Shown here in pieces: positions 4,559 through 51,740 of a DNA stretch of 64,000 bases. The notes below the pieces were generated by a model. That model ran no database searches. It had not been told where the DNA came from and was given only the letters and a program-made list of their open reading frames with translations. Within the stretch, counting starts at the first letter, position 1. Every line of letters begins with the position of its first letter. Source of the DNA: Bilabrum cf. latius (Eukaryota); contig OZ237744.1 in the NCBI GenBank assembly GCA_965178125.1, forward strand, positions 868,001 through 932,000, in the 5' to 3' direction. Made by a program: the position numbers and the translations under genes.

Positions 4559-7306
4559 TTAAAAACTCTCAATGTCTTCGTCATTCTAGGTCAGAGAACA
4601 CCCCAAAATGTCATCAATGAGGCTCTGGTGGCTCCGAACGGCATCGCGATACTCGCGAGCTGGCGGCAGAGACCCAGGCACCATGGGCGAAGAAGGGGCC
4701 CACCCACGACTACTGTCATTGTCCGTTCCATACGCTTCTTGCTGCGGGTCCGCGCTGCGCTGATCAAGCCGCGTTGGTGCTGTCGGTTGCGGCTGCGCGT
4801 GGTTGGGCTGGTCGTTGCCAACCACGGTCTCAGCATCTGAGTCTCCATCATCCATTGGAGGCTGGGCTGCAGTGCTCTGCTGAGGTTCTAGCGCATCACC
4901 ATTCTCTCGCAGAGTCGCGCTACTACCAGCGTACTCCACCTGCGGTCCAGGCGATGGCTCCGGCCCCCCTCCCCCGCTCCCTCCTACACCTCGCTGCTGA
5001 GTACGGAAGCCTGCCGGTTGCTCGAGTGTGTCTCCTTCCCCCAGGGCAGCGATCAAGTCACTCGGAGACAAGTCCTCGTCCGAGTCGCCCCCCAGCATGT
5101 CATCCTCATCGGCCTCCATGCCGGACGAAACCTGCATGGGCACGGCGCCACAGGGGGACTTCGCCCGTGGCTGCCCGAGCGGCTGGCCGGCGCTGCCCGG
5201 AGCTATCTTGTCTCTGTGTTGATACTAGACAGGACTGTGACCTGCAGCCGGCAGTGACACTGGCTGGGTCAGTGCAATTTCTGTGCGCTACACCGTGACC
5301 GGCGAGGCGGCGCTGTGAGGCGTCATGGCCATCTGCCCGGGTGGTCGCTGGTGTGCAGAGCTTGCCGTGTTGCGAGCAGTGCCTGGCCCTGGGACTTCGG
5401 CTGCACGGTGTCTGCCGATGTTACCGATCATCGCCACTAGACCTCTGCGTCCAGTCTGCTAGCCAGTAGGACGGGATGCATCGCCAGGCACCGCCCTCTC
5501 CTTCGCCCCGTCCTCTGCACCTTCCTCCTCCGACGAGCTGGACAGCCTAAGGCTCTCGCTGTCGGAGGAGGAAGAAGATGGAGAGGATGAGGGGGTCTCA
5601 GCCTGCCTTGCGTCCTCAAAGCTGACAAAAGTCTGACTTGCCGACATTGATGCTCCTTTACCCACGTGTCGCGACCCCGTCGGGTCCCTCGGCCGATGCT
5701 GCGCCCTTCTGCCCCGCCTACCACCGTGCCACCCGCGGCTGCCACTCGATGCACTCGAGTCGCTGCCCTCGTCTTCATCGTCACCGCTCTCCTCGCTATC
5801 GTCGTAGAGGTGCGGCGTGGCTGCAGGGGCAATGGGTGCGAGCAGGGCAGCCAGTGCCGCTCGGATTGGGTCCTGTGACGCAGCCGGCTGAGCAGCCGTC
5901 GCAGCACCCGGAGCGGCGAGGGACAGGCAGGGCTGCGTGCAGTTGGCCAGGGATGGGGAAGCCCCCGAATCGAAAAGCGCTGATATCTCCTCTCCTGATG
6001 CGAGCTCATCGCGCGACGGAGGGGGCCTGTCTTGCTTGTTTGACGGTCCAGCACCCGCGCCGGTGCCCTCGATTCCTGGGGCGACGCCAATGACGCTGTC
6101 AGAGGACAGCGAGTCCGAGTCGGAGCTCGAGTCATCCAAAGCGTCCAGCTGAGACGTTTGGTTGTCACATGCGCTCTGGGTCGGCAGAGCTGCGTGCTAG
6201 ATCGCAGGCTGCGATGCGGCACTCGCTGGCTGGGAGACAGGCTAGGTAGTCGCGGTTGGAGTGCCAACAGAGCTTACCAGAAGGCTGGACGCAGCCGCAG
6301 CCAATCTAGCCTGCAGCTATGATTGCGCCAAGACTGCCTACTAGTATGCTCGCTTCCACTGCTACGATTTGCGCCTGGCGCGCTGGTACTTGCTTCGCAG
6401 AGCACTCCGACCGCGGGCCGAGCGACGGCTTGAGCCCTTCCGCCGCTTGTCGTCATGACGCTCGGCCACATCATGCAGGTGCTGACGGTGCATCGAGCTC
6501 GATGCTACGTGTCTGCCCGTCGGTTGGGACAGCGGCACGTTTAGGGCGAATGGTTGCCGAGCCGAGCCAGCGGCGCTGCCGCTTGCTGGCAACGGAGTTC
6601 CGCTGGAGGTCTTTGCACTTGGCGTCAATTCATCTGGAAGTCTCATCAGTGGAGCTGTTGCTGGAACACGATACGTGCTGCTGGCGGCGTAACCGTGTGG
6701 GGCAGATGGGGTGCGTACTTGCGATGCTCCGACTGAGCTGGTGCTGCCGCACTGGGCATCTTCTGTGCCGCTCGGACATTCCTTAGCAACCGCATCCAGC
6801 GGGATTTGACCTGATCGAATTAATTGCACTAATTGCTCGACGCATTCCCTCTTCCTAGTTGCATCGTGTACAGCCTGTCCGGCTTGGCTGAGCATAAACA
6901 CGAGCTCAGGTCGTGAGAACGACAAATTGACGTGCCACTCTGAAGCTAGGTCCCCGCCTGCAGCAGTTCTGAGTCTAATAAGCAGCTGTCGGTACTTCTA
7001 CGAGTCTCGCATTCGCTTTTTGTCGTGAGGAGTTAGAGCTAGCACTCCTGGAAGCTGCTTTACGCCAATCTGCGCTTCGGTATCCGATTCAAAGCCCCCG
7101 AAAGCTTCATCGAGCGCATCCAGCTGACTCATTGGCTATTTGCTAGACTATTCTGCAAATTTGATCTGGCTTGTGTCGAGTTCATCGAAATCTGTTGGCA
7201 TGGGAGCGACTTGAGCACAGGCAGCCGGCACCGCCGGCCTTCGAATGAAGCCGCCTTGGCGTTTAGGTGCGTGTGAAGCACTGAGACGACCAATAAATCC
7301 ATCCAT
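4559..7306 (-). CDS. Hypothetical low-complexity acidic/Ser-rich protein (~915 aa); possible SAP/HeH-like helical motif near the N-terminus
   Basis: Pieces 6362..6925, 5459..6139 and 4586..5143 share one frame and only TAGs lie between them (e.g. WKRAY**AVLAQS*LQARL). Ends DIESF-TAA at 4559. ATG at 7306, with an alternative at 7201. Confidence 0.7.
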
Positions 7307-7460: not shown

Positions 7461-8861
7461 TCACTTCCTTCTTTTCTTGCTACCCCCAGAGGAGGACGGA
7501 GCCTTTCCAAAGAAACTGGCTAGACTTTTCATCCCAGTTGCCCCCTTACTCCCCTTCTTTGCCGGCTTCTTTTGCTTCGTGCCTCCGGCTGCCTTCGAGT
7601 GGATTGCTGACGCCTTGCCAGCGGGTCGACTTGCTTCAGGCTTGCCCGATGCATGCTTCGAAGCGGCTTCCAAGCTACCTACCGAGCTTGGCGGTGCGCG
7701 TTTACGGACCTGCGAGGTGCCGAGAAGGTCTCTCGAGCTGATCCCCAAAGCGTCTGCCGCAGCCACCACCCAGTGATCGGCGAGGTAGGATGCAATCATC
7801 CGGAGCCCTTCCAGGAGATGCTCGCTTCGCGGACGAGCGCGCCCCTTCGCAACAGCAGCAGATGCTGCAGCCCCTCCCGTGCCAACTGCAGCTGCGGCAC
7901 CTTCGCCGCTCGCAATCGCAATGGCAGAGCTGGACACGGAGAATCCTCCCGCGGGCCCAGACTGCTCCTCCCCTCTCGCGACCTCCTCCCCGATGCTTCT
8001 CGCCGCTGCAATCGCCTTGGCCGCCACCCAAGCAATTGCTCGTTTCTCATTAAGGCGATACAGGCGCATGTCATCTCCAAATTTGTCGTCGACGTCGCAT
8101 AGATCCAGTAGTGCATCGCTTGCGGCCAAGGCGGCGCCGATGTGGTGCAGGTTGGACCAGTCGCCCACCGGAGGTCGGGGCTATTTCGCATTGCTGTCAG
8201 GAGCCTGTAGGTTTAATGATGATTCGCTGGTCGTGCCTGCGGGTTGCGGCGCTTCTGGACCGCCCCCTTTCTGTGGCGTGGCATGCGCTGTGCCACTCGA
8301 AGTGCTAGCCGCGGAACTCGCACCTGGTAGGACACTTGTCCCCGACGCGAATCCCTGTGTTGTAAAGGCTGAGATTATTTGATTGATTGGGCTCTTTCGT
8401 TCCTTTGCCGCCTCCAACAGCGGCAGCAATATGAATCCAGCATCCAGAGGAGACACTACGAACAGACGCCCATCTGCGACAGAATACAAGTCATCCACCG
8501 GGTACGCCGTGAAATATATGAATGCATATGCTGCATCTACTCGTACGCCGTCTCACCTCGCTTTACGGTCTGGTCAATAAACATTGAACCTTGAAATCTA
8601 GAACTAAACTCGGTCATCTCGAATAAAGAGCCACCTTCTGAACTAATTTCGTGCAATACTAGTTTGCTTACTGCATTTGAAATAGAAGGACTTCACGACG
8701 ACGGTCTGGAAGCCATGCAACTGGAGATAAATGCAACCATGGCACGATATTCAAAAAAACGTACCTCCACCAACCGGGATGCGGACGGCATTGAGACGAA
8801 CATCGCCCAATGACCGGCTTAAATACCCCTTATCAACAAGTATTACCTCTCCTGAAGACAT
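7461..8861 (-). CDS. RNASEH2B: Ribonuclease H2 subunit B
   Basis: Splicing introns 8671..8764 and 8474..8556 gives SMFIDQTVKRDGRLFVVSPLDAGFILLPLL, then LCDV...YRLNEKRAIAW and a C-terminal PIP box MKSLASFF. One internal TAG at 8181. Ends in TGA. Confidence 0.85.
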
Positions 8862-8955
8862 GTAGTACACTTGATGACTGATGGGAAGCACGACACAAAA
8901 AGTGATGATGAAGATGCATTCGCCAAAACACCGGCGGCTGATATGAGACCGGCGC

Positions 8956-11331
8956 TCAAGCATCCGAGGCGCCGGCATTCAGTAGGATTTGAACGCACCT
9001 CTTGTGGCCGCGTACCCTGGCTGCCTGCAGCGCTGTCATGCTCACCCCGCCAAGCACCCCCACCGAATCGAGCCCGCCGGCAAGCTGCCCCAACCCGATC
9101 CGACTTGCGAGCTCCGATGCCCTCCCAAGGGCTGCAGCCCGAAACACCAGAACCGCGTCCCTCCGCGCCTCCCACGCCCGCCGGAAGTCCAGGACCGCCA
9201 TCCGCCTGGTCTGTCGTCGCATGGGTCCCGCCCACAGGGCGTTCTGCACTAGGCGCCTGCTCTTCACCAGCACTCGAGCAGGACCCACGTCACACTGGCT
9301 CACGAGGCCCCGCAGTGCGATGCACAGCCCCTCAATCTGTTTCGGGTTGAATACCGACCCATTGAGCATGAGCTCGACCAGCCCGGGGTTCAGCTGCACC
9401 ACCCGCGCCAGGAACCCCATGGGCTTCTTGCTGCGTGGCACATCCGCGAGGGAGGCCTTTCTCAGGGAACAAGCGCGGGGCTGTCCGTGCGAGGCAGACC
9501 GGAGCACGAGCGACTGCAGCAATTGCTCGCAGGCAGGCGCCTTGTGCCCGGCCACCGTGCAGCTGATCTCCTCAAGCATCTCCAGCGCGGGGATACCCTC
9601 CGCTAGCAGCTCTAGGTTGGTGGGAGCCAGCGGCTAGGGGAGGCGGAGCACGCGCAAAGCGCGCAAAGAAGACAAAGAGCGTAACCCGCTCCTTGGGGCC
9701 AGGATGATACCGTTGAGTTCCAGGTGTGTGAGCCCCGGGCACTTGCTTCCGATTGCCTGCAGCAGCGTGTTCACGCCGCCCTCGTCTTCCACTGGGCCGT
9801 ACTAGTTCACGGACTGCAGTACCAGCTGCTTGAGGCCGCTGGAACCTAGCCTGAGCAGGTGTTTTGCGAGTTGCTTTGACGTCTCGCTCACCCTCTTCTC
9901 GAGATCGAGGTGCAGGCTCTCACCCGGCTGGTCCGGTCCCACTAGCGCGGCCAGCATGGCAGCATCCGTCTTGTTCCCCGAGACAGGCACGTACTCGCCC
10001 AGCGGGATCCTCAGATGGCGGATGCGGCTGGGGCTGGCCTTCAGCAAAGCGAGGACCCTGAGCGTGTCAGTGATAGCGGCGCCGTCGAGTGCGAGGTGGA
10101 GCTCGCGCAGCCCGGGGGCGGCGCAGTCGTCCTTGCCGGCCTTCACCGCCCCGCCGCCCGACGCTTGCATGAGACGGGCCTGCCCCTTGACTAGGCCCGC
10201 GATGCCGCGATGAAAGTGCTTGTTGGGCCCTTTCAAGCTTTCGCTGTCGTTGCCCTGATCATCGGATTCATCGTCCTCTTCGTCTTCGTCTTCGTCTTCG
10301 TCTTCCTCTTCGTCTTCGCAGCTATCGTAAAAGTCGTTGCCAGCGCCATCCATGAAGCCGGAATCAGGGCAGTACTCCAGGATCGCCTCCACCCGAAAGA
10401 CACGCAGGCCTGCGTGCACTCCCGCCGCGCGGCCCAGCGTGGCAAAGCCGGGCCCCGGAGGCATCGTGCGCCGAAACCTGAGCGAGAGCTCTTGCAGGCG
10501 AGAGAGGCCCCCTGCCCTTGCCATCGCCTGGGCAGCACCTTTCAAAATGCCGTCACCTGCCCACGAATCGGCCAGTTTCAGCTTTCGAAGATTCGCGGCA
10601 TGCTGCAAGACCCGGCCCATCCTGCAGTCGGGCTTCTTGGGCTTGTGCGGGCCCTCGTCATACCCGTCCAGTGCCCAGGAGAAGGGCGAGCTGCCTGAGA
10701 GCTCGAGATACTCAAGCTGTTTCACTCTGCTTGCAACTCCTCTCCTAAGCAAGTCCTCTGCGACATTTCCGGGCACCATGGTCACGTTGACCGCGAGGTG
10801 CCGTGCACGACGCAGGCAGCGGATGGCATCCACCACCATGTCCGCGCCAAAGTGGCCGTCTGCGATGCTTACCTCAAAATCACGAAGCTTAGACAGCCCC
10901 CGTACATTTTTGAGGACTGCAATAAGCTTGGTCATCTCGCACCCGCTCGGATAGCTCTTGCTGGTAGTGTGCCGGATCCGAAGCGTCTGCGGGTAGCGCG
11001 CGCGGAGGAAGGCATCAATGATCGCCGCTTCACAATCCCCGGGCTCAACATTGCCAGACCCGACGATATCGAGCAAGCGAATGTTGTCCCAGTTGCTCTC
11101 TATTCTATCTGCGATTTCATAGACCGCGTCCTCTTTCTGAAGCAGGCGTCCACTAGCCACAACTCGTACCTCCTCGAGACGCTCGTCGTCTTCCCATTTC
11201 TGTACATCTTGAGAGCGAGTCCATCTAGGAGCAAACACCTTGCCGAGGCAGCCATCGATTGGCAGTGTCTCGTTTGCGGTCCTCATCTTTGCTGGGTTAG
11301 ATCTAGGCACGTTCAATACCAAAGAGTTCAA
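8956..11331 (-). CDS. Leucine-rich-repeat (RNI-like) protein with C-terminal ankyrin repeat(s); 5' end uncertain
   Basis: Repeated LxxLxL motifs (LEYLELSG, LRKLKLAD, LQELSLRF, LRELHLAL, LTHLELNG) and an ankyrin motif TALQAARVRGHKRCVQILLNAGA. Pieces 9802..11331 and 8956..9579 are in frame across TAGs. Ends in TGA. The first in-frame ATG is at 11286. Confidence 0.7.
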
Positions 11332-11703: not shown

Positions 11704-14700
11704 ATGGCGCACGCTACGGGCCGAAGCCATGGAATCAGTAGTGCGGGTGGCGTAGATCCGTACGCTGACCTTCATTTCAAGATGGCCAAGAAAATAGCAC
11801 AGCTCACAAAGGTGATATACCACCTGAATACCAGGAACGAGGATCACGAAGTGGAGATGAAAGCTGTTACGCGGCGGCATCAAACTGAAATAGATGAAAT
11901 TCTTTCGGATGCAGCCAAGCGTATTGCCTCGTTTAAGGATGCTGTTGCCGAGCGGCGGCGGGCCGCCGAGGCGGCATCCGCTGCCGAGCAACTTCGAGAG
12001 CAGATCCAACAAGAAAGGCACGACGCTAGAGAAAGGCTCCGAAAACAGCTGGAGAGCTCAGACAGAGAAAAATCGCAACTGCGTAGTGATCTGGAGCGGC
12101 GATCGGAAGAATTGCACAAGCAAGCAAGCGACATGCGGGACCGACTGGAGGCCCGAGTTCGCCAGTTCAAGCGCTTCATGGACAAAGTCTCTGGAAGAGC
12201 AGACATTAGCGAAAAAGAACTAGCTAGGCTGAAGGAGGAACAAGAGTCCGCTCGCCGAGGTCACGAGGAGGCCCTCAGGGCCGCGCAAGAGCAGGCTAGG
12301 TCGGCAAGCGAGGAGGCAGCCAGGCGAGCCAGACAAGAGGCGGAGGACTAGCACAGGCGCGATATGGAGGAGCGCTTGGCCGCCGCAGCGGCCAGACAGC
12401 TAGAGCTGGAGGCGGAGTGGAAGCAGTCCAGCGGTGATCTTGACCGAGACCTCGCCGACGCAAGGGGTAGGGCCAGCCAAGCCACCGCGAGGGCGGAACG
12501 GCTGGAGGGCGAGCTGGATGCCGAGAGACGAGCGCATATAAGAACCAAGGAAAACCTCGAAGCGTCCAAGAAGGAGACCGCGGATGCCAGGGAACAAGCA
12601 GCCGGGTATCAGCGCAAGGGGGAGGAGGCCTAGGACCAGCTGAGCAGCATGCTGCAGCGGGCGCAGGCAGAAGTGGCTCGTCAGACCGAGAGAGCCGACG
12701 GGCTCGAGCGGAGCCTGCAAGAGACAGAAAAGGAGCTCAACTAGTCAAAAGAAGCCAGATCAAAGCTTGAACGGGACTTGGATCAGGCCAGGGAGGAGGC
12801 AAGACGCACCATGCAGGAGCAGGGGGCGAGCCAGGAGACGCTCAGGCAGCAGCTGCAGCGGCTGCGGCAAGAGCTGCAAGCGAAGCAGGACAAGGCAGAC
12901 GAGCTTAAGCTTACCATCGAGCGGGAGCGATAGGGGCGAGAGCAAGATCGCAACAAGTGGGAGACGGAGCGTCGGGCTTTGCAGCAAGAGATGGAGGGCC
13001 TCAGGTCCCAGATCGGGGCTGCCATGGACGAGGCGTCCCAGCGCGCGGCCAGCGCGGGAGATCAGGTGCAGGCCCTCAGATAGCAGCTCGAGGATGCAAA
13101 GCAGGCATCACAGGAAGCGATGCGGAAGCATGAGCGCGCAATGCAAGAAGAAAATGCCCGCGGGAGAAATGCGTTGCAAGAGCAGGCGTCGGCACATGCG
13201 ATGGCGATGGGCTAGGCCAGCGCAGCCGCAGAACAAGCGCTGCAGGAGGAGAAAGGCAGGACCGAGGAAGCATCCCGCAAGCTAGATGCATCGGAGGCCA
13301 AGGTGGACGAGCTAAAGGTGCAGCTGGCCGATCTGCAGAGGGCGCTGGACAGCAGCAAGGCAGAGGCTCGGCAGCTCCAAGAGTAGCTGGATGGGGCCGC
13401 GAGGCAAGGGGGCGACTTGTCAGGATAGCTGTCGGAGGCCCAGTCAAAGATCCGAAAGCTCGAGCAGAGCGTAGAAGACACCGGAAAGCAGCTTGATGCC
13501 GAGAGGACAGGCCGTCAGGAGGCTGAGAAGGAGAGGGACGACCTGCGCGACAAGGTGGACAAGCTGGAGATGCGAGTCGCTGAGCTTCGTGACCTGATGG
13601 GCAGGGAGGCAAAGGCGGCCGAGGAGAAGCTTCGAACGCAGTTGTCTGCTCTCGAAGACAGGCTCAAGAGGGCCGCCGCCGAAAACGGAGACGCGGAGCG
13701 ACGTCGGCTACAGGCAGAGTTGGACCGCTCGAGGCGCGAGGCCGAGAAGAGGGCGAGGGAGGAGGCCGAGAGGGCGCGGAGGGGTGCGAGCGACCAGGTG
13801 AGGCGCATGGAAGAAGAGTTGCGGAGCAAGCTGCAGCAGGCAGAGGCGGCGACGAATGCCGCTGCAGAGGCGAGGGTGGAAGCTGAGCGACGGCTGGTGA
13901 GAGAGGGGGAGGCTGCCCTGAAGAAGCAGGCAGAGATGCAGGCTCAGGCAGACAAAGAGCTGGAACAACTCAACGCGCAGCACCAGCAGGCATTGTAGGA
14001 GCTGAAGAAGTAGCACAAACTAGAGATGGACTCACTCCGGGAATCGCTCCAGGGTGAGAATGGCGATGCGCTGAAGCGAGCCAAGGCCAGCCACGAGGAA
14101 GCACTGCGGAAGGAAAGGGAGGCATCGGACCGTCGCTTGCGAGAACTACGGGACTAGCACGCCAAAGAAATCCAGAGTTTGCAGCGAAAGCATGAGGAAT
14201 CGATTGAGGCTGCTCGAAAGGAGGAGCAGGATGCAGCCCGTGAGGCCATGCTTCGGATGCGCGAGTCGCTTACAAAGGAGCGCGATGCCGTCGAGGAGCA
14301 GCTGGCGCAGGCCGGAACGAAGCTCCAGGCAACCAGAGCGTAGCTGGATGCGGCACAGCAGGACAAGTAGCGGCTGGACCGTGCGTTGCAGGAGGCTGAG
14401 CAGCGGAGGCAGGAAGAGCTTCGCGCTGCCGATGGGCAGCTCCGAGAGGCCATTCGACGGGAGCGATAGGCGGCAGATGCAGCGCTCCAAGATGCGCGGG
14501 GACAGAACGAGCGCGCTGTTGCGAGACTAAAGGAATCTTTCGAGCAAGAGCACCTGCAGTGGGCGGCAGAGCGCAAGCAGCTTTAGGACGAGATCGTCGC
14601 GTGGGAGCAGAGGTACGAGGAGCGACCGAGCCGCCCCGACGACTTGGACAGGATTAAGGCGCTACAGCAGGCGCTTCGCAAGAGAGAGGAAGCGCTTGCA

Positions 14701-15342
14701 AAGGCCTTAAAGGACCTGCAGTACTTCCGGCTAGAGCTCATCAATCGCGAAGAGACGTACAACAAGGTCTTCGGGAGGTAGCCGAAGGTGGGCGTCATGT
14801 CTGTGGGCGACTCGCAGGCGCAGCAGGCCATGGGTGCAACTTCTATGGCCATGTCTAAAGGCGCACTCATGGCGCGAGCCTAGACAATCGTGCAGTCGCA
14901 GGCACAGGCTGTGCTGCAGCAGGCTGGGGTTGGACAGGGTGGCGTAGGCAGCGGCGGAGCAGGTCAACGCCCAACGCCGAGAGGCGCTGGGTCGGGTTCA
15001 AGGGGGTCGGATAGCGGCGGGGCCGGCGGTTTGACGCCAAGGCGATCGGGGCGGCTCGCGGGGGCAGCGCAGGAAGCCTTGCTAGGGGGAGGGGGCAGTG
15101 GCTAGCCTGGTGCCACAGGAGGCAAGCCCCGGACAGTGCTACCTCCAGTGCACGATTCAGGCTTGGGATCCTCCCGGCGAGGTGCTGGAAGCAAGACTGG
15201 AGGCGGTGGGCTCGGCGGAGGGCTTGCGAAGGGATCAATGCGAGCTAGGATGCAAAAGGTTCGGTCCAAGGCTTCCATGGGCGGCACCGAGAGCAAAGGT
15301 TAGCAAGAGGCAATGGCCAGGACCGGGTCATTCCGGCAGTAA
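11704..15342 (+). CDS. FAM184: FAM184-family coiled-coil protein (1212 aa)
   Basis: The N-terminal DLHFKMAKKIAQLTKVIYHLNTRNEDHE and C-terminal YFRLELINREETYNKVFG*PKVGVM-type motifs are the conserved FAM184 ends. They lie in one frame that contains at least 19 TAGs and no TAA/TGA until TAA at 15340-15342. Confidence 0.85.
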
Positions 15343-15468: not shown

Positions 15469-18400
15469 TTACCCCTTGACCTCATGCAAACGCGACTTCG
15501 ATCTGCTGCTTGCGCGACGTTTGAAGATCCTAGTTTGCCGCCTTGATCGGGACGAGCCGCTCCTAGATGAAGACCTTGACCCGTGAGAACTCCTGCTACC
15601 TCGACTGGACGCCGACCCGCGCCGGCGTCTGGCCTTTGCCCGGCCGCCCCGCACTTTGTGCGAGGCTGCTTCCTGGGCTGCAGCCAGCTTATGGGCCTTC
15701 AGAAGGAGCTACTGCATGGTGCCCGACGGCGTCCCAGTGACTAGCAAGAATGGAGGCGGCTTGTACTTTGCGAGCGCATCAGCGACTGCCCTCTTCTCTG
15801 CCTCGGAGTCTCGACGCAGCCTGGCAGATCGGAGCAACTTGTGCACGTGCTTTGAATCTCTTGGCGTGCCCGCATGGGCACGAAGCCGCATTCGGAGTTG
15901 TTGCGCCCTGCTAGACGTAGATGGAGGAGGCTCCAGCCTGCGACTCCACGCAGCTGGCGACCTGATGTTGTGGTCATCGTGCGGAGCCTCGCCCGCGAAG
16001 CCGAAGGGTTCATCGATACCAGTGGCCCCACCCATCGATGGAGACACGGGCGGCTAGCCCACCTCTCTTGTGGTCCTCGGCACATTCATCCCGCTACCAG
16101 CTTCGTTGGCCTTCGCAGCTGATGCCACCATTCCCAACCGACCTCGCTTCCCGGCCAAGAAAGCACCTAGCGCGACGTCTTTGACTTTCTGCCGCCGATC
16201 TGCCGATTTCGATGCATGAGCGGCAGCAATAGCAGATTCGATAGCTGCTAAGCGATGTATAGCTATCTTCTTGGCGTGAGCGCGGAGTCTCTGGCGCATG
16301 TACTGCTTCAGCACAGCAATCCTCGTCCCGGCGTTGATCTGGTGGTTCAAGCTTCGCAACACCAGCGGGTCGCTCAGCAATGCGGTTTCACTGCCATCTA
16401 TCGTGTCACGCACCGCTGTGGCAGCTAAAGGAGTGCGGGGAGTGGAGGTGCCTCCAAGCGAAGAGCCGCCTGCCGCGGATCCAGGTCGCGAGCCAGCGCT
16501 AGACACAGGCCCGAACGTGAAGGCTTCCGAGGGTAGTACCGTGGGACCAGAGCCGGTCGGCATGCTTGTGTCGATGGGTCTAAGTGTGGGCCTTCTAGCT
16601 TTCTGTCCGCCGCTTGGCTGCTACGTTTGGTCGCCTGTTCGCCCCTATCCGGTGCGGCGAGCACCGATGTGATCTGGTCTCTGTGCGCCGACTCGAGGAC
16701 GGCCTTGCGGGGGCTAGGGTGATGCAGCCGGGCCACCACTGGCAACACCAGCAGCAGATGCAGGCATGATTGGTGCTGCCATGAGACCCCTAGGCGTGCG
16801 CATCTGAAGCGACCGGATGAGGTCTGCGGGTGCTGGGGCTGGCTTGGAGTTGGGCGATGCAGGAATCATCTTGGACACGATATCGTGGTGGTCAGCCCCT
16901 GAAGCTGTACGGAAAAGCCCCCGAATGCTCTGTCCACGCGTCGGTTGCTGCTCGGAAGTGGGACTTGCAGACTTGGCTGCACGGAGGAGATGGTCGGCTC
17001 CTCGACGACCACGCACAGGGATATCGTCGCCGACCTTGGCGACTCGCTCGTGAAGTTGGCCCATTTGGTCGAGAGACGCGCCTTTTCCAGTCAGTTGGCT
17101 TTCTGTTTCTTGTCTGAACGAATTTATCTGCTGCTCTCTTGCATTATCCTGCTGCTGTTTCTCTCGAATGCTCATGAGTTCCATTGCAGCACCCCACGCA
17201 CTGCTTGCGGAGGAAGCAGGCCTAGCTACCGATTTCTTCTTCTTGCGAGTCATGCTGTTGCGCTTGGTTCGCATCACCAGCCGTGAGCTCTTCATTCGCT
17301 GCATCGGTCCAATGCTGTGCATTGCGCCGGCTACCTGGTCAGTTTCAACACTTGCTACACTGCTCCCCATTGGGGACGAAGGCGGGCTAAACACACCCGA
17401 CTGTGCCCTCAAACTATGCGCACTGCCCCCCAACGGGTGACTAGCAGCCAGCCGAAACCGGCTCAGCTTCGCCGATGCTGCTGCCTGCCTCCATTTGAGC
17501 TTGCTGCGCAGCCTGGTTTCTTCTCGTCTCCACATGTGACCCAGCAGCTCAAGTCTCGCCGCGCTGCATGCGAGGTGGGACCGAATGCCGCGCTGCACTC
17601 GAACGACCATGCTGACCAGCTTCCGGATGTGCATGCGGATACGAGCGCCGTGAATCGAAAGCACATGCTCTCTCAAGAATGTGCGGATCAGTTCACACGC
17701 TCGGCGCTTGTTTTGTATCCTCGTGGCGATCCTGAATCGACCGATTGCCCGAACGATCATACCCTTCGATCCCCTGAATCGCTTCGCCCAAAGCCTCTCC
17801 TTGGCGCCCCTCCACAGCCTCTGAATAAACAGCGCACCAGCAAGATTGATCTTTCGCATGCGATCTTCAGCCAGCCCTTTGGCTATCAGACGAACAGAAT
17901 TCACAAGCTTGATGATTGTCAGCCATGCAGCCCGCCTCTCATGGAGCTTCCGCGCCTCTTGGTGCATGCGCTGCCTTCCCTAAAACCCATAGGCTAGCGC
18001 TATCCTCCTGTCCTCCAAGCGTTGCCTGCGGGCTCTGGTCTGTGCAAGCCGACGGTCCGTGTCCTTTGCACGGCGCCTGCGCTGGATCCACTTTGCAAAG
18101 GGGGTGGCGCGCTGCATGCAGAAGAGAGTGTTCTCACGAACGATGTCCCTACCACCGGATGTCGCAATCCGTTCAAGCCGATGCAGCGCGACTTGAAACT
18201 CGAGTGCTTCGTTTGCGTCTGGATTCTTCTTCAGTGTCTCGATTCTGTGCTGCATTCTGGCCGCTGGCGTGTCGCGCACGTCCTGCGGCAGAGTGTGCAG
18301 CGCAGTCAAACCTGACCGAATGGATCGCCTCAGCTTGGGGTCCTGCTGCACTGCAAGCACGCGTTTACGCAGCGTCTTGATGGTGGCGTTCTAGATCCGC

Positions 18401-21400
18401 CCCGTCATTGCATTCAGTACCTCACTTTCGGCCCCGCTCATTCCGCCCAAGCTGCCATCGGCCGTGTATTCCCGATCTGCAGGTGAGCTGGTCCGACTAA
18501 CACGAAGCTTTCCTCGCCGGTGGCCAGATCCAGTCGCCTCACCATCGCTTGCGGTTCCTGTCTACTGCTTATCAAGCCCGTTAGGAGAAGGCCCGTGATC
18601 ACCGTCGCTAAAATAGCCAGCTATATTTCCAGCTGCAGCACTTGCTCGTGTTGGCGAATCGAGTGCCACTGCGGTCAAGGCGAACAGGTCATCGGCTGCG
18701 AATCGGGTGCCTCCCATCGTCGGCGACTAGGCCCTAGGAGCTGGTTCAACCCCCGAAAATATGGAGTCACTGTCGCTGTCTGTCTGTGCAGTGCTTGCAA
18801 AAGGCACCCTCGCAACCACGGCGTCATCTGCGGCATGCTCTGGCGCCATCTAGAGACCCTCGATGGCGCTACCGTCACCTGCAACTTCGTCTGAAGGCAC
18901 ATTGAATTTGCCGATCTCATTCACATTCAGACCCAAAGAGTGTATTGTCGCAACGAGACCACTTCGTTTCGTAATTTCTTGCGACTGCGAGGAACGCTGC
19001 ACGGTAAGCTGCTGCGATGTGCGCCGAGCTTGCAGCCGAGATGCTGCTTGCTTGATCTCGTTATCGTTCGCAGACCCAGCTTCTAGTTGTGCTAGCCGCA
19101 GACGCTCGCTTTCTCGGGCGATCTCAACAGCTTCAAACTAAGCTTCCCACTGCTGCAAAGATATCGACTTGCGGCGGTTCTGCGGAGTCTTTGGCAATGG
19201 CGAGCTGTCTCCTGCCTGCGTGGTAGAGAGCCTTTGGCCTCTGGGAGATGCAGGGCCCATAGATCGATGACCACGGGCAATTTCCCGCTTTTCCTGCTTT
19301 TCGAAGCGCTTTCTTGCCCTCTGCACACTATTGAGCCTAGACCTTGCCGCGGATCTCACCTTTGCGTGCCGGGGGACGAGGATCTGCAAGTGCTGCTGAA
19401 CAGTCTGCTGGGACTGCATGCCAGACTTGACAGCACCCTTCGGCTTTGCCCGGGCAGAATCGCGCCTCTTCATCCTGCGGGTGTACCGGATAGTGCGACC
19501 GGATCCGAACCTTGGAGTCGTCCCTCCTTTCGCGAGGAGACTGGCCATTGTCTTCGAAGCATTCTTTGGAGAATCCGGGACGGCTAGCAGAGACGGGGAC
19601 CCCTTCAGCACCCTGCGTCGTTCAGACGGATCCAGTGGAGCCGGCATCATGTAGTTGCTGGCTCCAGTTTCATTGGTAGCAGAGTGAGCCCCATCGTCGT
19701 CGAGCTTGGCAGCAGCTGGATCAGCTTGCTCGTGCCCAGCGAGGGCACCAGAAGCTGGTGACATCGGCCTTGATTGAATCGAAGCCTGGCTCTGCAGAAA
19801 GCTGTACCTTCGCATATTGTAGCTGTCTAAATCCGGGCTTCGCATTGATTTTCTGCCCCTGTCTAGCGACAACACCCCTCGCCCTCGGTGCTGGAATTGC
19901 GCTGGCACAACAGAGGGCGTTAGTCCAGTGTCCAGGCCATGCTAGGCCCTACTCAGCTGAGAATCAGCCCGTCCACGACCCTATGACAAGTAAGAATCGC
20001 GTCTATCGTCAGACAAACTTGGCTGCACTCCGTCATGAATGCTGCCGTGCTTGCCATCGTCTCCAGCAGTCTCACTCCCACGCCTGCTACGATCGACGGG
20101 TTCCTCAACGATCGACCGCTCGCCATCAGGTCCAGATAAGCCATTGATCACGGTACCATCCGTGTGCGCTGCACTCCGTGCTTTGAGAGACTCCAGAACT
20201 CCATCCTGGTCAACCCAGCCGTCCCACCATTCCGATGGCCAGTTGCCACGGTCCTAGGCAGCTAGAGACCTAGCTCGAGCGGAAAGGTGAGACATGTCAC
20301 CCTGCTCAGTATCAACAAATGCGGTAGAATCTCTTGCAGATCTAGAGGCGACTGCGCCCGCATTGGTTCCAGCTGATGTTGCGATTCGAATGACCGCAGG
20401 AGATACTGCTCTTTCCACTGCAAGTGACTTGCCTGCGGATGGTCGCCACGCCGGCTTGCCATCCGGTCTCCTTGACCGACGGGATAGAACTGCCCAAGGG
20501 CCTCGGTCGTCAATGTACGCGTCTGTAGCATCCAAAGTCATGTGCTAGCTAAGCTTTGAGCCAGCTTCAAGGCCCTGGGTGACACGACCTAGTTTCCGCC
20601 GCTGTTTCTCCCTGCTGATGGCGACCGCATCCACACGCTCTGAGAGGTGCTCAAAGGCTTCCTTGTGCTCCGCCCCTGACGCTGCACCAAACTAACTGTT
20701 CCGGTCAGAACCTGCCCTGCGGCCGCGGAGGCGCATCTTCATTGGAGCTCGCCTGGATCCCACTGAGCTCTGTGCTCGTCTAGCACTCAATGATGGTCCG
20801 CGGCGCACTGGCGACACCACCCCAGTGAGCCCACCGCGAATAGCCGTGCGACGGGTCATGGCAGCTGATGGATCTATGTCTGGCTGACACAGCTGGCCCG
20901 GCTGGGTTTCATGGCTGCCAGAGCCAGGAGAGGAGCCGCGAGCGCTGCTCGTGGTCAATCCGGCACTGGATCTAGCAGATTCAAGTCTGGGGGTTGCCAG
21001 TACCGTCGAGCCAGCTCCCGATCTGGTCCCCTATCGTTGCAGTCTCTTCGCTTCGGATTTCGCCAATCCCTCAATCTCGACTTCCCGCTGCGCGAGGGCA
21101 CCAATGGGCGAGCGCGGATCGATGAGTCCTGGGCGCTCCCTGATCATCTGCTTCACCTTTGGGTTGTCGAGGAGCCATCCCCACGCCTCCGCTTGAGACC
21201 TTGCAGCTTCTACATGGTCCTTTGACAAGAGCTCCAGGGCTACTCTACGGGCCTCCTCCGGCTTGAGGTCCACCAGCGCCTTCGCTTCGTGCACGCCAGC
21301 CCTCTTCTTGGCTTGCTGCATGACGGTCCCGCGCTCTTCCTCCGAAATTTCGACCCCAATTCGTCCAATAATGGCATCTGCCTTTTTTTGCTCTGCCATG

Positions 21401-22053
21401 GCTTGCTTCCGTATCTCCTCTCTGAGCTTTGATGCCCCTTCACTCATGCTACCACCTGCGAGCGATGCAGCCTCTGACGAATCTGCCGCCGAAGGCAGCG
21501 TGCCAACCACTTTGTCGATGTCAAAAGACAGCTTGTCATCCAAGCCCCTATCATGCGGCGCAGCTGTTCCCGACTTTGACATATTTCTCAGGGTGTACTC
21601 CCTGGCCGTAACGCCTGCAGGCCGTTTTGGTGTTTGCCCGGCATCGACATCTGAGAAGAGCCCCTGTACAACCACAGAGGCTCGCCGAAGCTCACTTCCG
21701 AGTGCTTTGATTCTTTTAATGTTAGCTTCTGCTTCTTTGCTCAGCGCTCTTGCCGTTTGACGCTCTGCAATAGTACTACTGCGGCGCCTACCTCGGCTGG
21801 ATTGCACCGCAGCTGGAGCATTTGCTTGAGCTATACCACCGCCAAAATCATCATCGTTTAATAGTACACCTTCGGACTGTATGCTACTCCTTCTATCACG
21901 TTTAAGACTTGACAGGTCTCCCGGTTTCGGGGCGCGATACTCACTGCCGACAGATTCTGCCGTAACGGCAAAATCCTCGGCAATTTCACCAGCATTCCGA
22001 CGTTTATTCCACTTCTCTCTGGCTTCCTATCTTCGTCCGATCATCTATTCCAT
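15469..22053 (-). CDS. Very large IQ-motif-containing, largely disordered basic protein (~2194 aa)
   Basis: Nine ORF-track pieces share one frame, and I checked that the gaps contain only TAG. IQ-like motifs: ALFIQRLWRGAKER and VRVQRGIRSHL. The ATG at 22053 directly follows an in-frame TAA. Ends in TAA at 15469. Confidence 0.75.
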
Positions 22054-22278: not shown

Positions 22279-24949
22279 TCACTTGCGCATCGTGGTGGCT
22301 TGCGATACGCTCACCGCGAACCGCAGCGAGCAGAGCGTCTCCTGGGAGTGCAGGTGCAGCGGGCACAGGTTGCAGATCATGAGCGCCTTGGCACCATCCG
22401 TCAGCGAGCTCTGCAGCATGCGGGTGAGCACGGATCCTCTGAACTGTGTGTGTCCCTTGCTGCTCGATGCGAGGTCCCGCATCACCTGGCCGAGCACGGT
22501 GAGGCTCTTGTTGATGGAGGTGGCTTCCTTCTTCAGGGCCGCCTCCTTGTCCGCGCCACTCTTGCTGATCCTCTCGCTACCTGCCAGATCCACCAAGTTC
22601 AGCACGCCGTGGCGCACCTGCTTCGTCTCCTTGTGCTCGCTCCGCACGAAAATCCGGAACACGGCGTGGGAGCGCGACGACGTCGCATTCGACTGCGTGC
22701 CCTTGGTGGACCGACCAGCCATGGCGTCCCGCAGCATGCACAGGAGTGCTTCAGCACCCGCATCGCTGCGCACCTCCACCTGCCTCAGCCCCTGTACCTC
22801 GCTCGTGTTGGTGGACGGGTCGAGCCTTAGAGTCACTACACCACCACCGGTTGGGGAGCCAGCTGCCGCTCCACCGGTAGCTGCACCGATCGACGAAGAC
22901 GAAGACGAAGACGAAGACGACGCGGCGACTCGCGATTTACGCCGTGCGGATGGCGCCGATGGCGGAACCAGGCTCTTGCGAGACGACTTTGACTTCGATC
23001 CCCTACCGCCGCTGCCGCTCCCCGCAGACGACGCCGGAGAGACGGCGCTCGATGCGGTGCTGGGTACCTCTACAACTTCAAGCCCCTCGTCCAAGCCGTC
23101 CGGGGCCAGATCCCTGATCTTCTCGTTGTAGATCTCGCACACGTCGGCCCGCACCTGCACGGTCCACCCGAGCTTCTTGAGGCCCTCCGCCCTGTCGAAG
23201 ATCTCCTCCACTGCCCGAGGAATGATGCCGCGACAGGGGTCCACCGATTCTTTGCCCTTGCTGCTGCTGCTCATGCTGCTCGTGCTGCTACCTGTGGCGG
23301 CCGCTGACGTTTTCGCCCTGCCTCCCTCCGGTCCCATCATCGTGAAGGTCTTGCCGGCGCCCGTCTGCCCGTACGCGAACATGCACACGCGATGACCGTC
23401 AATGGCGGAGTGTACCAGGCCCTTGACCTCGTCAAAGACCCCGCTTTGGTCCATCAAGGGAGAGAAGACCCTCTGAAAATCGAAGGTGTGCCTCTTCCCC
23501 TCCCCGACACCATACCCGCCCGTGCCCAGTCCGGGTCGCTCCGCCACCACCAGACGGGTAGGCTCTCCGTCCACGGCTGGGAACTCAAACAGCGGACTTC
23601 CCGATCCGTCTGCTGCTGCAGCCGCAGAGCTGCTGGAACTGGAGCTTGAGCCCGAGCTCGCGCGGGCCTTGGACGAGGCAGCCGCGATGTCCTTGCCTGA
23701 GGCCACCCGCCTCAGCTTGGCCATGTGCTTCTGCATCCCCGCAGCCTCCGCGCCCTTCTCCCCCCGCGTGGTGGGCCTTACACGCACAAACACCCGGATA
23801 GCCCCTTGAAGGTCCAGCACCTTTTCCTCCAGTGCCGCGCGCCTGGCGTCAGACACCTCGAAGCGGCCTCTGTAGCTGTCTGCCTCTGCCTGCGCCGACT
23901 CCATCGCGGCCTGAGCCTCTTCAGCGGCCTCTTCTGCCGCCTATATCTTATCACGTGCTTCCTGCAGTGCCTCTTCAGTGTCTGCCAGCTTGGATTCCAG
24001 CGCCTGCACCTCGCCCTGGATGGCCCGGCACCTCGACTCGGCCTCTTTGGCGCGGTCGTTCGCCTCGGCTGCTTTCTGCTCCGCCTCTTCCCTGCCCGCC
24101 TGCGCCTGCTCCGCCTTAGCCTCTGCCTCGGCACGCATCGCCTCTGATTGTTCCCTGGACGCTTCCTCCTCCGCGTGGTCCGCGTGCTCCTTTGCACTCC
24201 CAAGCTCCGCCCTCAGCCGCGCGATTGTTCCCTCGAGCTGGGCCTTCTCCACGGCGTACTGGGAGAGCTTCATGCGTGCTTCTTGGTGCTCGAGCTTGTC
24301 CTGGTCAGAAGCCGGCTTGTGGTTGCGCAGGGTTCGTTTGAGGCCCTTGATGATCCTGAGGAGGTCCTGCTAATTGCGGCGCTCCAGCTCGGGCGATGGG
24401 GGCAGCTCCGCCGGATCGATTCCGCGGAAACTGCTGCGTCGATTGCGTCGAGATGTCATGCTGCTGCCCCTGCGCATAGGCTTTGCCCCTCCTCGCCCCG
24501 AGCTGGGAGCTACGGCTGCTGGCCCGGAGCCAGTTCCAAGATCCAAGGGAGCTGTTTCCTTGTCACCTGACGGACTAGCGGGGCCAACTCCACTGGAACT
24601 TTTGGTTTTGTCTGATACTACAGTCTCAATAGCAAACTTGCGGGATCCTCCGACTGTCTTGCCGGTCTCAGTCCTCCTGCGCTTCCCTCCAATTTGGTTT
24701 CTACTTTGGTTACGCTGCGCGAAGACGATCAGTTTCTATCATCGACAATATGTATTATTAAAGTGAAGAATACACTAGATTAATTTTATATTTGCTTCTC
24801 ACTCGTTTCATTCCAGCGATAGCCTGTCCAGCGTCCGCTCGCTGCAGCATCCTGCTCGTGGAAGCATCTACCTTTGAGTCTTGGGACGACGATCCATTCG
24901 CCTTAGTTGACCCTCGAAGTGCCTGTCTTGTTGTTCTAGTTCTTCGCAT
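22279..24949 (-). CDS. Kinesin-14 (C-terminal motor, KIFC1/Kar3/Ncd-like)
   Basis: Coiled coil, then neck DLQGAIRVFVRVRP, P-loop FAYGQTGAGKT, switch I NATSSRSH, switch II DLAGSER and INKSL. Intron 24736..24802 (phase 0). Two TAGs in the tail/stalk. Ends in TGA. Confidence 0.92.
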
Positions 24950-25070
24950 GACGACTTTGATCGGTAGTTTTGCAATGTATTTGCCCCGCTAGTGCTTCAC
25001 AACGGACGGCAGCTGCAATACGTTTTCTGCACCTTACAACACTACGGAAAGGCAACTGCCTCAAATTGTG
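24950..25070. promoter_or_regulatory. Probable bidirectional promoter between kinesin-14 and ATG2-like genes
   Basis: Only 121 nt separate the two divergent start codons. This is inferred from position; I identified no motif. Confidence 0.45.
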
Positions 25071-38232: not shown

Positions 38233-38265
<33 letters not shown>

Positions 38266-40500: not shown

Positions 40501-40533
<33 letters not shown>

Positions 40534-43500: not shown

Positions 43501-43545
43501 CGCCGTCTCCCCGCCCCATGCAGAATCAGATCCTGATGCTGCCTA

Positions 43546-43578
<33 letters not shown>

Positions 43579-51577: not shown

Positions 51578-51740
51578 GGTAGCACCAGACTATCGCCGCT
51601 TGGAGCTCTTTGCATTTCCCTTTATTTCGCGATTTTCAGGCATTTCGTTGCCCAGGTAACCCTTTAAGTTGAACAGCGGTATGCAAATATGTAAAATTTG
51701 CAGTTGGAACAAATTTAAAGATGAAGAACAAATCAAATCA

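What the first reader, a model, noticed from the sequence alone, without database searches (positions are those of the whole stretch)
11704..15342. Non-standard nuclear genetic code: TAG is a sense codon, while TAA and TGA remain stops
Seen: the FAM184 frame carries at least 19 in-frame TAGs (e.g. 12349, 12631, 12742, 12931, 13081, 13996, 14341, 14779, 15301) and no TAA/TGA over 3.6 kb; most lie between its conserved N- and C-terminal motifs. The same holds across the window: nearly every gene is broken only by TAG, and all 15 complete genes end in TAA (5) or TGA (10). Established: most eukaryotic stop reassignments (e.g. the ciliate code) change UAA and UAG together, because of tRNA wobble and eRF1 recognition. 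Reassigning UAG alone is rare and known from only a few protists, such as Iotanema spirale, a rhizarian and some ciliates. Inference: this lineage needs a tRNA with a CUA anticodon and an eRF1 that rejects UAG but accepts UAA/UGA, and it may be an independent, undescribed origin. I cannot identify the organism from this window.
Basis: partly seen in the sequence, partly recalled or inferred. Interest (0 to 1): 0.96.

Follow-up and report, generated by a model that had tools for sequence, protein, structure and literature searches.

The report
TAG read as glutamine in a protist
This stretch of a compact, GC-rich protist nuclear genome uses the stop codon TAG as an ordinary codon, most likely for glutamine, while TAA and TGA still end genes; this rare kind of code change is already known from a few other protists.

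Summary
The frame 11704-15342 has exactly 19 in-frame TAG, no TAA or TGA, and ends in TAA. In 13 gene models (18,160 codons) there are 145 in-frame TAG. All 13 end in TAA (4) or TGA (9).

TAG is not spliced out or edited, as far as contigs can show. Run X5 holds a contig with two GT..AG introns removed, so it contains spliced transcripts. Its contigs cover 39 of 43 TAG codons in five genes with no difference.

A metagenome contig (L001) carries a FAM184 orthologue, 57% identical, with 30 in-frame TAG and no TAA or TGA. So the trait is shared by at least two divergent organisms.

Glutamine is the best reading. Across 39 TAG-versus-residue sites the partner is Gln 14 times, and Gln has the highest likelihood. 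Glutamate is the runner-up.

No tRNA gene lies in the window and no genome is held, so tRNA(CUA) and eRF1 are untested.

Best named hits and a kinesin tree point weakly to stramenopiles. Ten literature searches found no nuclear UAG reassignment there.

Verdict: a real UAG-to-Gln code, probably a new lineage of a known kind.

The parts
11704..15342 (+). FAM184-like coiled-coil gene, 1212 codons, 19 in-frame TAG, ends TAA
   Evidence: Pfam FAM184 E=7.4e-10 at residues 37-228. Orthologue L001 is 57% identical over 1124 columns. X5 contig covers 11565-15007 with 0 differences and 0 gaps.
2971..4098 (-). Aldose 1-epimerase gene, 2 TAG, ends TAA
   Evidence: Pfam Aldose_epim E=7.8e-27, profile 24-297 of 299; counts.
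4559..7306 (-). Gene of unknown family, 915 codons, 13 TAG, ends TAA
   Evidence: no Pfam family.
7461..8473 (-). Last exon of a three-exon gene of unknown family, 1 TAG, ends TGA
   Evidence: no Pfam family.
8474..8556 (-). Spliceosomal intron, 83 nt, GTGAG...CAG on the gene's strand
   Evidence: Joint 8473/8557 in an X5 contig; splicing restores one ORF.
8671..8764 (-). Spliceosomal intron, 94 nt, GTACG...CAG on the gene's strand
   Evidence: Joint 8670/8765 in the same X5 contig; ORF restored.
8956..11286 (-). Gene of unknown family, 776 codons, 2 TAG, ends TGA
15469..22053 (-). Gene of unknown family, 2194 codons, 19 TAG, ends TAA
   Evidence: X5 contigs 15389-20452 and 20508-21972 show 0 differences.
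22279..24477 (-). Kinesin with C-terminal motor (kinesin-14 type), 2 TAG, ends TGA
   Evidence: Pfam Kinesin E=4.4e-75, profile ends at 325/327 at residue 725 of 732.
24948..31604 (+). Gene of 2218 codons, 22 TAG, ends TGA; only a sub-threshold hint of ATG2
   Evidence: ATG2_CAD E=0.1, 10.6 bits against a cut-off of 50.
32639..35149 (-). Metallophosphoesterase-domain membrane protein, 7 TAG, ends TGA
   Evidence: Pfam Metallophos E=3.8e-5; counts.
35590..50538 (-). Giant gene, 4982 codons: cyclophilin domain plus about 13 near-identical repeats of about 345 residues; 31 TAG, ends TGA
   Evidence: Pro_isomerase E=5.1e-14.
50729..51643 (-). Small gene with a sub-threshold TFIID-18kDa (TAF13-like) match, 6 TAG, ends TGA
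   Evidence: 21.3 bits against a cut-off of 27; counts.
51741..59663 (-). Gene of 2640 codons with about 1060 residues of Lys/Pro-rich short repeats; 18 TAG, all after the repeats; ends TGA
60037..61959 (-). Last exon of a CDK-like protein kinase, 3 TAG, ends TGA. An upstream exon at about 62023-62643 ends in the glycine loop GQGTYG.
   Evidence: Pfam Pkinase E=2.3e-50.
63384..63737 (+). ENTH-domain exon of an epsin-like gene with 3 in-frame TAG
   Evidence: Pfam ENTH E=1.3e-26; PDB epsin E=6.5e-23; column counts.

Best explanation
The window is nuclear DNA of a compact, GC-rich (about 0.6), intron-poor eukaryote. Its ribosomes read UAG as a sense codon, most probably glutamine, and end translation at UAA and UGA. 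This matches the code of NCBI table 15 (name recalled). Shown here: UAG is in frame in every gene model. It is kept in contigs of a run that contains spliced transcripts. It is conserved at orthologous sites in a second organism. It behaves like Gln in alignments. Inferred from published reasoning for other UAG-only lineages (PMC5304391, passages): decoding by a tRNA-Gln with anticodon CUA, one base away from tRNA-Gln(CUG). That anticodon pairs with UAG but not UAA. Alongside it, an eRF1 whose N-domain no longer recognises UAG efficiently. UAG supplies about 18% of Gln codons here and 27% in the relative, so the reassignment looks old and fixed rather than leaky readthrough.
For: (1) 19 TAG and 0 TAA/TGA in 1212 codons of the FAM184 gene. 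145 TAG and 0 TAA/TGA in 18,160 codons of 13 models, with TAG equally frequent in all three frames. (2) Eukaryotic genes are read through TAG into complete Pfam domains: kinesin, protein kinase, ENTH, aldose epimerase, FAM184, cyclophilin. (3) Run X5 has one contig that skips 8474-8556 and 8671-8764, with GT..AG on the gene's strand, restoring a single ORF. X5 contigs listed cover 39 of 43 TAG codons in five genes with no other letter and no gap. (4) L001, a 3853-nt metagenome contig, has a FAM184 orthologue with 640 of 1124 aligned residues identical. It carries 30 in-frame TAG, 0 TAA and 0 TGA in 1135 codons. Four TAG-TAG pairs sit in conserved context, e.g. NKVFGR-TAG-P(K/N)VGVM. (5) Amino acid: of 39 sites where one orthologue has TAG and the other a residue, the residue is Q 14, R 7, E 6, and L, V, A, D, K, T 2 each. 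With substitution frequencies taken from the same alignment, lnL is Q -81.3 and R -104.1 (next residue that has data). With BLOSUM62 it is Q -90.0, E -102.6, R -104.3. True Q pairs with Q in 40% of cases in this alignment; TAG pairs with Q in 14 of 39 (36%). (6) L001's TAG at residue 33 falls on the Q of KIAQLTKVIY, which is Q in the window and in 8 of 8 FAM184 homologues P0121-P0128. (7) ENTH exon: at site 127 Gln is the commonest residue (61 of 148). At site 65 the closest relative (P0131, 73% identical) has Q. (8) Database fragments P0131 and P0271 (97% identical, 40 aa) both end exactly before the TAG at site 127. That is expected if a standard-code gene caller stopped there; this is my inference.
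Against: ENTH site 65 aligns with Trp in 141 of 144 homologues, and site 74 with Glu in 120 of 146 (Q only 2). By my rough arithmetic from the column counts, taken alone, the three ENTH sites favour Glu slightly over Gln. Most amino-acid evidence comes from one coiled-coil gene pair, where alignment in the less conserved middle is uncertain: 25 of 39 partners are not Q. Run X5 is not on record as RNA, and the tool's own label is 'RNA? (probably DNA)'. Its RNA content is inferred from one spliced contig, and contigs cannot prove that the FAM184 contig is cDNA. No tRNA(CUA) and no eRF1 could be examined. Whether UAG ever terminates cannot be excluded. In 5 of 13 models the last TAG lies within 25 codons of the TAA/TGA, and in the kinase gene it lies 2 codons before it.
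Confidence: 0.87

Rival explanations
1. UAG is a sense codon but stands for glutamate, or another residue, rather than glutamine.
For: ENTH site 74 is Glu in 120 of 146 homologues, and site 127 is Glu in 44 of 148. E is the second-best residue under BLOSUM62 in the FAM184 pair (-102.6 against -90.0). UAG=Glu exists in an uncultured ciliate (PMC11687900 passage).
Against: Q beats E by 12.6 lnL units (BLOSUM62) or 32.6 (empirical) over 39 sites. TAG sits on a Q that is invariant in 9 of 9 other FAM184 sequences. The closest ENTH relative has Q at site 65. Trp, suggested by ENTH site 65, scores -173.3 and never pairs with TAG in the 39 sites.
Confidence: 0.07
2. UAG has two meanings: sense inside genes and stop near some 3' ends, as in context-dependent codes.
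For: In 5 of 13 models the last TAG lies 2-25 codons before the TAA/TGA: 2, 9, 13, 21 and 25. None of the short tails after them is checked by homology.
Against: Given each gene's TAG density this clustering is not significant; by my estimate about 2.5 of 13 are expected and P is about 0.09. Conserved sequence continues after TAG at every TAG-TAG orthologous pair. No gene model needs TAG as its end.
Confidence: 0.08
3. The code is real, but the organism belongs to a lineage where UAG=Gln is already published (the Iotanema lineage of fornicates, Protocruzia, or phyllopharyngean ciliates). If so, nothing is new.
For: A FAM184 quick tree put window+L001 beside the fornicate Aduncisulcus (SH-aLRT 86), with end branches of 1.7-2.35 changes per site. 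I could not obtain rRNA or a multigene placement.
Against: Iotanema ends genes with UAA in 104 and UGA in 15 of 119, and UAG is about 8% of its Gln codons (PMC5304391 passages). Here TAA 4 and TGA 9, and TAG is 17.8%. In fornicates the change is confined to the Iotanema lineage: its relatives Euthynema and PCS-ghost use the standard code (PMC9161772 passages). The window's clade holds members only 57% identical in FAM184. In the kinesin tree the window sits in a clade of 14 (support 0.99) whose 4 named members are all stramenopiles. No ciliate is among the named hits.
Confidence: 0.15
4. Artefact: pseudogenes, assembly errors, introns or RNA editing produce apparent in-frame TAG.
For: None found beyond the general possibility.
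Against: Only TAG is affected: 145 against 0 TAA and 0 TGA. Two separate runs (X1, X5) agree at every laid base, with no 'other letters' for X1 or X5. There are no joints inside the FAM184 gene. The same pattern occurs in an independent metagenome contig.
Confidence: 0.01

Closest known systems
Iotanema spirale (Metamonada, Fornicata): UAG=Gln, UAA and UGA stops (PMC5304391, PMC9161772; passages read)
   Same: Same codon table: UAG alone reassigned to Gln, with UAA and UGA kept as terminators.
   Different: Stop usage is UAA 104 / UGA 15 there against TAA 4 / TGA 9 here. UAG is about 8% of Gln codons there against 17.8% here (27% in L001). Named hits and the kinesin tree here point to stramenopiles. 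The eRF1 GTS-motif change reported for Iotanema could not be looked for.
Protocruzia tuzeti and some phyllopharyngean ciliates: UAG=Gln only (PMC11687900; passages read)
   Same: Same reassignment. That paper stresses repeated independent origins.
   Different: No ciliate appears among the named homologues. The source assembly holds a contig of 212 kb (longest X1 record), GC is about 0.6 and genes lie on both strands; from memory, this is not what I would expect of typical ciliate macronuclear DNA.
Rhizarian exLh (UAG=Leu) and Scotinosphaera (UAG=Ser) (PMC5304391; PMC11687900 passage)
   Same: UAG and UAA are uncoupled; only UAG is reassigned.
   Different: The amino acid differs. L pairs with TAG at 2 of 39 sites and S at 0 of 39.
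UAR=Gln codes (NCBI table 6: many ciliates, ulvophytes, hexamitin diplomonads, Streblomastix, Amoeboaphelidium per PMC11687900 passage)
   Same: Stop-to-Gln reassignment, probably through mutated tRNA-Gln.
   Different: TAA is never in frame here (0 of 18,160 codons) and ends 4 of 13 genes.
Phage 'code 15' (TAG=Gln in crAss-like phages; PMC9523058, search listing and abstract only)
   Same: Same table.
   Different: The window encodes kinesin, CDK-like kinase, an ENTH protein and spliceosomal introns. This is a cellular eukaryote, not a phage.

Membership tests
UAG-only stop-to-Gln nuclear code (Iotanema / Protocruzia type) | In-frame UAG inside conserved protein-coding genes | tested here: met
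   145 TAG in 13 models. The models carry complete Pfam domains.
UAG-only stop-to-Gln nuclear code (Iotanema / Protocruzia type) | UAG positions correspond to Gln in homologues | tested here: met
   Q at 14 of 39 orthologue sites and the best likelihood. TAG falls on a Q that is invariant in 9 of 9 other sequences. ENTH sites are mixed: W, E and Q consensus.
UAG-only stop-to-Gln nuclear code (Iotanema / Protocruzia type) | UAA and UGA are not used as sense codons and do terminate genes | tested here: met
   0 TAA and 0 TGA in frame. Terminators are TAA 4 and TGA 9. The kinesin and epimerase domains end 7 and 9 residues before TGA and TAA.
UAG-only stop-to-Gln nuclear code (Iotanema / Protocruzia type) | UAG is never a terminator | tested here: inconclusive
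   No model needs it, but tails of 2-25 codons after the last TAG in 5 of 13 genes are unverified.
UAG-only stop-to-Gln nuclear code (Iotanema / Protocruzia type) | UAG is present in mature mRNA (not edited, not spliced out) | tested here: met
   X5 holds a doubly spliced contig. Its contigs cover 39 of 43 TAG unchanged. Caveat: these are contigs, and the run's kind is a guess.
UAG-only stop-to-Gln nuclear code (Iotanema / Protocruzia type) | A tRNA-Gln with anticodon CUA | not testable with these tools
   No tRNA in the window, no Rfam match, no genome held.
UAG-only stop-to-Gln nuclear code (Iotanema / Protocruzia type) | An eRF1 N-domain altered at UAG-reading positions (GTS, NIKS, YxCxxxF) | not testable with these tools
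   eRF1 is not in the window and no genome is held.
UAR=Gln code (NCBI table 6) | UAA is also read as Gln | tested here: not met
   0 in-frame TAA in 18,160 codons, and 4 genes end in TAA. Making TAA sense adds no long ORFs: 6 ORFs of 500 aa or more, as under the standard code.
Codes with no dedicated stop (Condylostoma, Blastocrithidia, Amoebophrya types) | All three stop codons occur in frame | tested here: not met
   Only TAG occurs in frame.
Iotanema lineage (Fornicata, CL3) | Phylogenetic placement in Fornicata, with codon usage like I. spirale | tested here: inconclusive
   The FAM184 quick tree is weakly beside Aduncisulcus (SH-aLRT 86, long branches). The kinesin tree and named hits favour stramenopiles. 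Stop usage and UAG share differ from I. spirale.

The most novel reading that the evidence does not exclude
A whole clade of protists, probably stramenopiles near the bicosoecid/Bigyra part of the tree, reassigned UAG alone to glutamine. The clade has at least two members only 57% identical in one protein. This would be an origin independent of Iotanema and the ciliates, and the first nuclear stop-codon reassignment reported in stramenopiles. UAG has already grown to 18-27% of Gln codons. Because genome-scale DNA runs and a run with spliced transcripts exist for this organism, the responsible tRNA(CUA) and the eRF1 change could be read off directly.
Probability: 0.45. Interest if true: 0.72.

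Novelty: new member of a known kind. Interest (0 to 1): 0.62.

Why it matters
Uncoupling UAG from UAA in a nuclear code is rare. The passages I read list one rhizarian, Iotanema, Scotinosphaera and a few ciliate lineages. Each independent case tests how a tRNA(CUA) and eRF1 co-evolve to separate the two codons. This case has a GC-rich, compact genome and transcript data. It also has at least one divergent relative with the same code, so the age and order of events could be reconstructed. There is also a practical consequence: standard-code gene callers cut these genes into pieces. Two public database fragments end exactly at a TAG of the ENTH gene. Annotations and protein databases for this organism and its relatives are therefore probably wrong unless table 15 is used.

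Tried and rejected
- No RNA holder is listed for the stretch. I relied instead on joints seen in laid contigs.
- No genome is held for the window, so no tRNA, eRF1, rRNA or Codetta-like scan was possible.
I sent no trimmed version and dropped that route.
- The metallophosphoesterase protein (7 TAG) found no homologue in the word-seeded search.
- The PDB match of the epimerase did not reach its two TAG sites.
- The giant gene's repeats carry TAG at the same two places in every copy, so they say nothing about the amino acid. One copy has TAG where the others have TGG, a single-base change that is uninformative.
- Correlation of TAG density with amino-acid composition across 12 genes was not significant (Q rho 0.42, P 0.18; A rho 0.48). 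That run also mis-framed one exon; the counts were redone.
- The FAM184 tree (10 rows, quick method, careful search unfinished) is saturated and does not place the organism.
- The first kinesin alignment timed out. It was redone on motor domains with FastTree. The rows there were the top 60 hits plus the named ones, kept only if the matched stretch was 250-800 residues: 64 rows including the window.
- Pseudogene, editing and intron explanations were rejected (see rivals).
- Phage or bacterial origin was rejected, given eukaryotic genes and spliceosomal introns.
- Supplementary tables of the Iotanema papers (codon tables, eRF1 alignment) were not seen and may bear on the comparison.
Full report
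**What is there**

The frame 11704-15342 (+) translates as a 1212-residue coiled-coil protein broken 19 times. All 19 breaks are TAG. There is no internal TAA or TGA, and the frame ends in TAA at 15340. The other five frames of the same stretch carry 12-23 TAA+TGA each. A run of 1212 codons with none is therefore not chance.

With TAG read through, the protein has a Pfam FAM184 N-domain (E=7.4e-10, residues 37-228). It also has the family's conserved C-terminal block, seen in the alignment with eight homologues.

**The window as a whole**

- GC is 0.56-0.68.
- Read with TAG as sense, the window resolves into closely packed genes on both strands.
- The genes are plainly eukaryotic: kinesin with a C-terminal motor (E=4.4e-75), a CDK-like kinase (2.3e-50), aldose 1-epimerase (7.8e-27), an ENTH protein (1.3e-26), a metallophosphoesterase, and a cyclophilin-headed giant repeat protein.
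- In 13 gene models covering 54.5 of 64 kb (18,160 codons), frame 0 holds 145 TAG, 0 TAA and 0 TGA.
- Frames 1 and 2 hold 148 and 127 TAG, 45 and 62 TAA, and 237 and 467 TGA. TAG is not avoided in frame, while TAA and TGA are absent from it.
- The 13 models end in TAA (4) or TGA (9).
- The zero for TAA and TGA is partly built into how I defined the models. However, the kinesin and epimerase Pfam profiles run to their last positions 7 and 9 residues before a TGA and a TAA, so both are real terminators.
- A caution: treating TGA as sense also produces long ORFs, because TGA is the commonest stop triplet in GC-rich DNA. ORF length by itself is no proof.

**Are the TAGs in the message?**

No listed run is on record as RNA. 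When four runs were laid on 7000-24600, one contig of run X5 skipped 8474-8556 and 8671-8764. On the gene's (minus) strand these stretches begin GTGAG / GTACG and end CAG. Removing them gives one continuous ORF. X5 therefore contains spliced transcripts of this organism.

The listed X5 contigs broadly follow gene units: 9331-11241, 11565-15007, 15389-20452 and 20508-21972. They match the genome with no other letter and no gap. They cover 39 of the 43 TAG codons in the five genes laid, including 17 of 19 in FAM184. This argues against splicing or editing of TAG.

One caveat remains. These are assembled contigs, the tool's own guess for X5 is 'probably DNA', and a contig cannot be proven to be cDNA.

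**A second organism with the same code**

A scan of metagenome contigs with the FAM184 protein returned one locus, L001 (3853 nt).

- Its frame 2 encodes an orthologue with 640 of 1124 aligned residues identical (57%).
- It has 30 in-frame TAG and no TAA or TGA in 1135 codons.
- Four TAG codons are shared at homologous positions in conserved context.
- Conservation continues in frame after every one of them.

So the ribosome reads through, and the trait predates the split of two well-diverged organisms. Two more relatives are hinted at by ENTH fragments: P0131 (73% identical) and P0147 (61%).

**Which amino acid?**

There are 39 sites where one orthologue has TAG and the other a residue.

| Partner residue | Sites (of 39) |
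|---|---|
| Q | 14 |
| R | 7 |
| E | 6 |
| L, V, A, D, K, T | 2 each |

Likelihoods:

| Model | Best | Next |
|---|---|---|
| Substitution frequencies from the same alignment | Q -81.3 | R -104.1 (next residue with data) |
| BLOSUM62 | Q -90.0 | E -102.6, R -104.3 |

Further points:

- Ordinary Q pairs with Q in 40% of cases in this alignment; TAG pairs with Q in 36%.
- L001's TAG at residue 33 lies on the Q of KIAQLTKVIY. That position is Q in the window and in all eight other FAM184 proteins.
- At the shared TAG of NKVFGR-TAG-P, two of the six homologues that I could align there by eye (of the eight) have Q (P0122, P0123).

The ENTH exon gives mixed signals against 150 library representatives:

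- Site 127 is Q in 61 of 148 (the mode), with E in 44.
- Site 74 is E in 120 of 146, with Q in 2.
- Site 65 is W in 141 of 144. The closest relative has Q there, and two other near hits have Y and H.

Trp as a general meaning is excluded by the FAM184 pair: W is the partner at 0 of 39 sites, and lnL is -173.3. Gln is my reading at about 0.87. Glu is the main alternative.

TAG makes up 17.8% of Gln codons here (CAA 156, CAG 513, TAG 145). In L001 it is 30 of 112.

**Mechanism**

- Shown: the decoding outcome.
- Inferred: a tRNA-Gln(CUA), which can read UAG but not UAA, derived from tRNA-Gln(CUG); and a change in eRF1 that weakens recognition of UAG. This is argued for Iotanema and the rhizarian in PMC5304391 (passages). 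The same work reports a T32G change in the eRF1 GTS motif of Iotanema (also PMC9161772 passages).
- Neither could be tested. ARAGORN finds no tRNA in the window, Rfam finds nothing, and no genome is held.
- Whether UAG also terminates some genes is open. Short unverified tails follow the last TAG in 5 of 13 genes.

**Who is it?**

The evidence on its position:

- Top named kinesin hits are stramenopiles: Attheya, Cafeteria and Aphanomyces.
- The best FAM184 hit is Bicosoecida sp. CB-2014 (Stramenopiles, Bigyra). It is followed by unnamed proteins, then Aduncisulcus (a fornicate), Hondaea, Scytosiphon and Chlamydomonas.
- In a FastTree of 64 kinesin motor domains the window groups with two unnamed proteins (support 0.995). 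That group sits inside a clade of 14 (support 0.99) whose four named members are all stramenopiles. The named animal, plant, alveolate and metamonad sequences fall outside it.
- A FAM184 quick tree is saturated. It puts window+L001 beside Aduncisulcus with SH-aLRT 86 on very long branches. I treat this as unresolved.

Against identity with Iotanema:

- Its genes end in UAA in 104 of 119 cases, and UAG is about 8% of its Gln codons.
- Its closest free-living relatives use the standard code.

I put stramenopile affinity at roughly 0.6.

**Known or new?**

The code itself is known. UAG=Gln with UAA and UGA as stops is reported for Iotanema spirale, Protocruzia tuzeti and some phyllopharyngean ciliates. 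UAG=Leu is reported in a rhizarian and UAG=Ser in Scotinosphaera (PMC11687900 passages).

Ten full-text searches found no report of a nuclear UAG reassignment in stramenopiles, bicosoecids or Bigyra. The only papers holding 'bicosoecid' or 'Bigyra' together with 'UAG' were, by their titles and abstracts in the search listing, about mitochondrial genomes.

That library lacks most subscription journals, and the runs date from 2025. An existing or pending description therefore cannot be excluded. I rate this as a new member of a known kind.

**Verdict**

- The main interpretation is supported.
- The amino acid is most likely Gln.
- The mechanism (tRNA and eRF1) and the lineage remain to be shown on the whole genome.

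Noticed in passing
window 35590-50538 (-): Giant gene of 4982 codons. It has a cyclophilin-type domain at the N-terminus (Pro_isomerase E=5.1e-14), then about 13 nearly identical repeats of about 345 residues rich in Gly, Ala, Ser, Glu and Trp. This stretch has GC 0.67 and GC skew -0.34. The long antisense ORF 36261-49169 (+) is probably a by-product of this composition.
   Followed up: partly
window 42031-42033 (-), residue 2836 of the giant gene: One repeat copy has TAG where the other copies have TGG (SVDA-W-GSGADA). It is a single-base difference between otherwise near-identical repeats. Under the reassigned code this is a Trp-to-Gln change, not a truncation.
   Followed up: no
window 63471-63473 (+), ENTH residue 65: This TAG falls on a column that is Trp in 141 of 144 ENTH homologues. 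The closest relative (P0131) has Gln there, and two near hits have Tyr and His. This lineage seems to have lost an otherwise almost invariant Trp.
   Followed up: partly
proteins P0271 (40 aa) and P0131 (72 aa) against window 63384-63737: Public protein-library entries 97% and 73% identical to the ENTH exon end exactly before the TAG at residue 127. They look like standard-code gene calls cut off at TAG. Existing predictions for this organism and its relatives are probably fragmented.
   Followed up: partly
window about 56480-59663 (-), first ~1060 residues of the 2640-codon gene: A long array of short Lys/Pro-rich repeats (KPSKPEKPGKPASPGG and variants) contains no TAG. All 18 TAG of the gene lie after it.
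   Followed up: no
window 60037-60045 (-): In the CDK-like kinase gene a TAG lies two codons before the terminal TGA (...SAD-TAG-AAG-TGA). This is the closest case to a possible TAG terminator in the window.
   Followed up: no
window 24948-31604 (+): Protein of 2218 residues with no Pfam family at E<=0.001. Its C-terminal part gives only a sub-threshold ATG2_CAD hint (E=0.1). It may be a lipid-transfer protein of the ATG2/VPS13 kind.
   Followed up: partly
window 15342-15469 and other gene borders: Intergenic spacers are very short. For example, 126 nt separate the convergent stops of the FAM184 gene and its neighbour, and 97 nt lie between 51643 and 51741. Verified introns are short (83 and 94 nt) with canonical GT..AG ends.
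   Followed up: no
window 10268-10315 and 22892-22921: Very short, very deep contigs (depth 300+) and loose ends pile up here in several runs. These are probably low-complexity triplet repeats shared with other loci.
   Followed up: no
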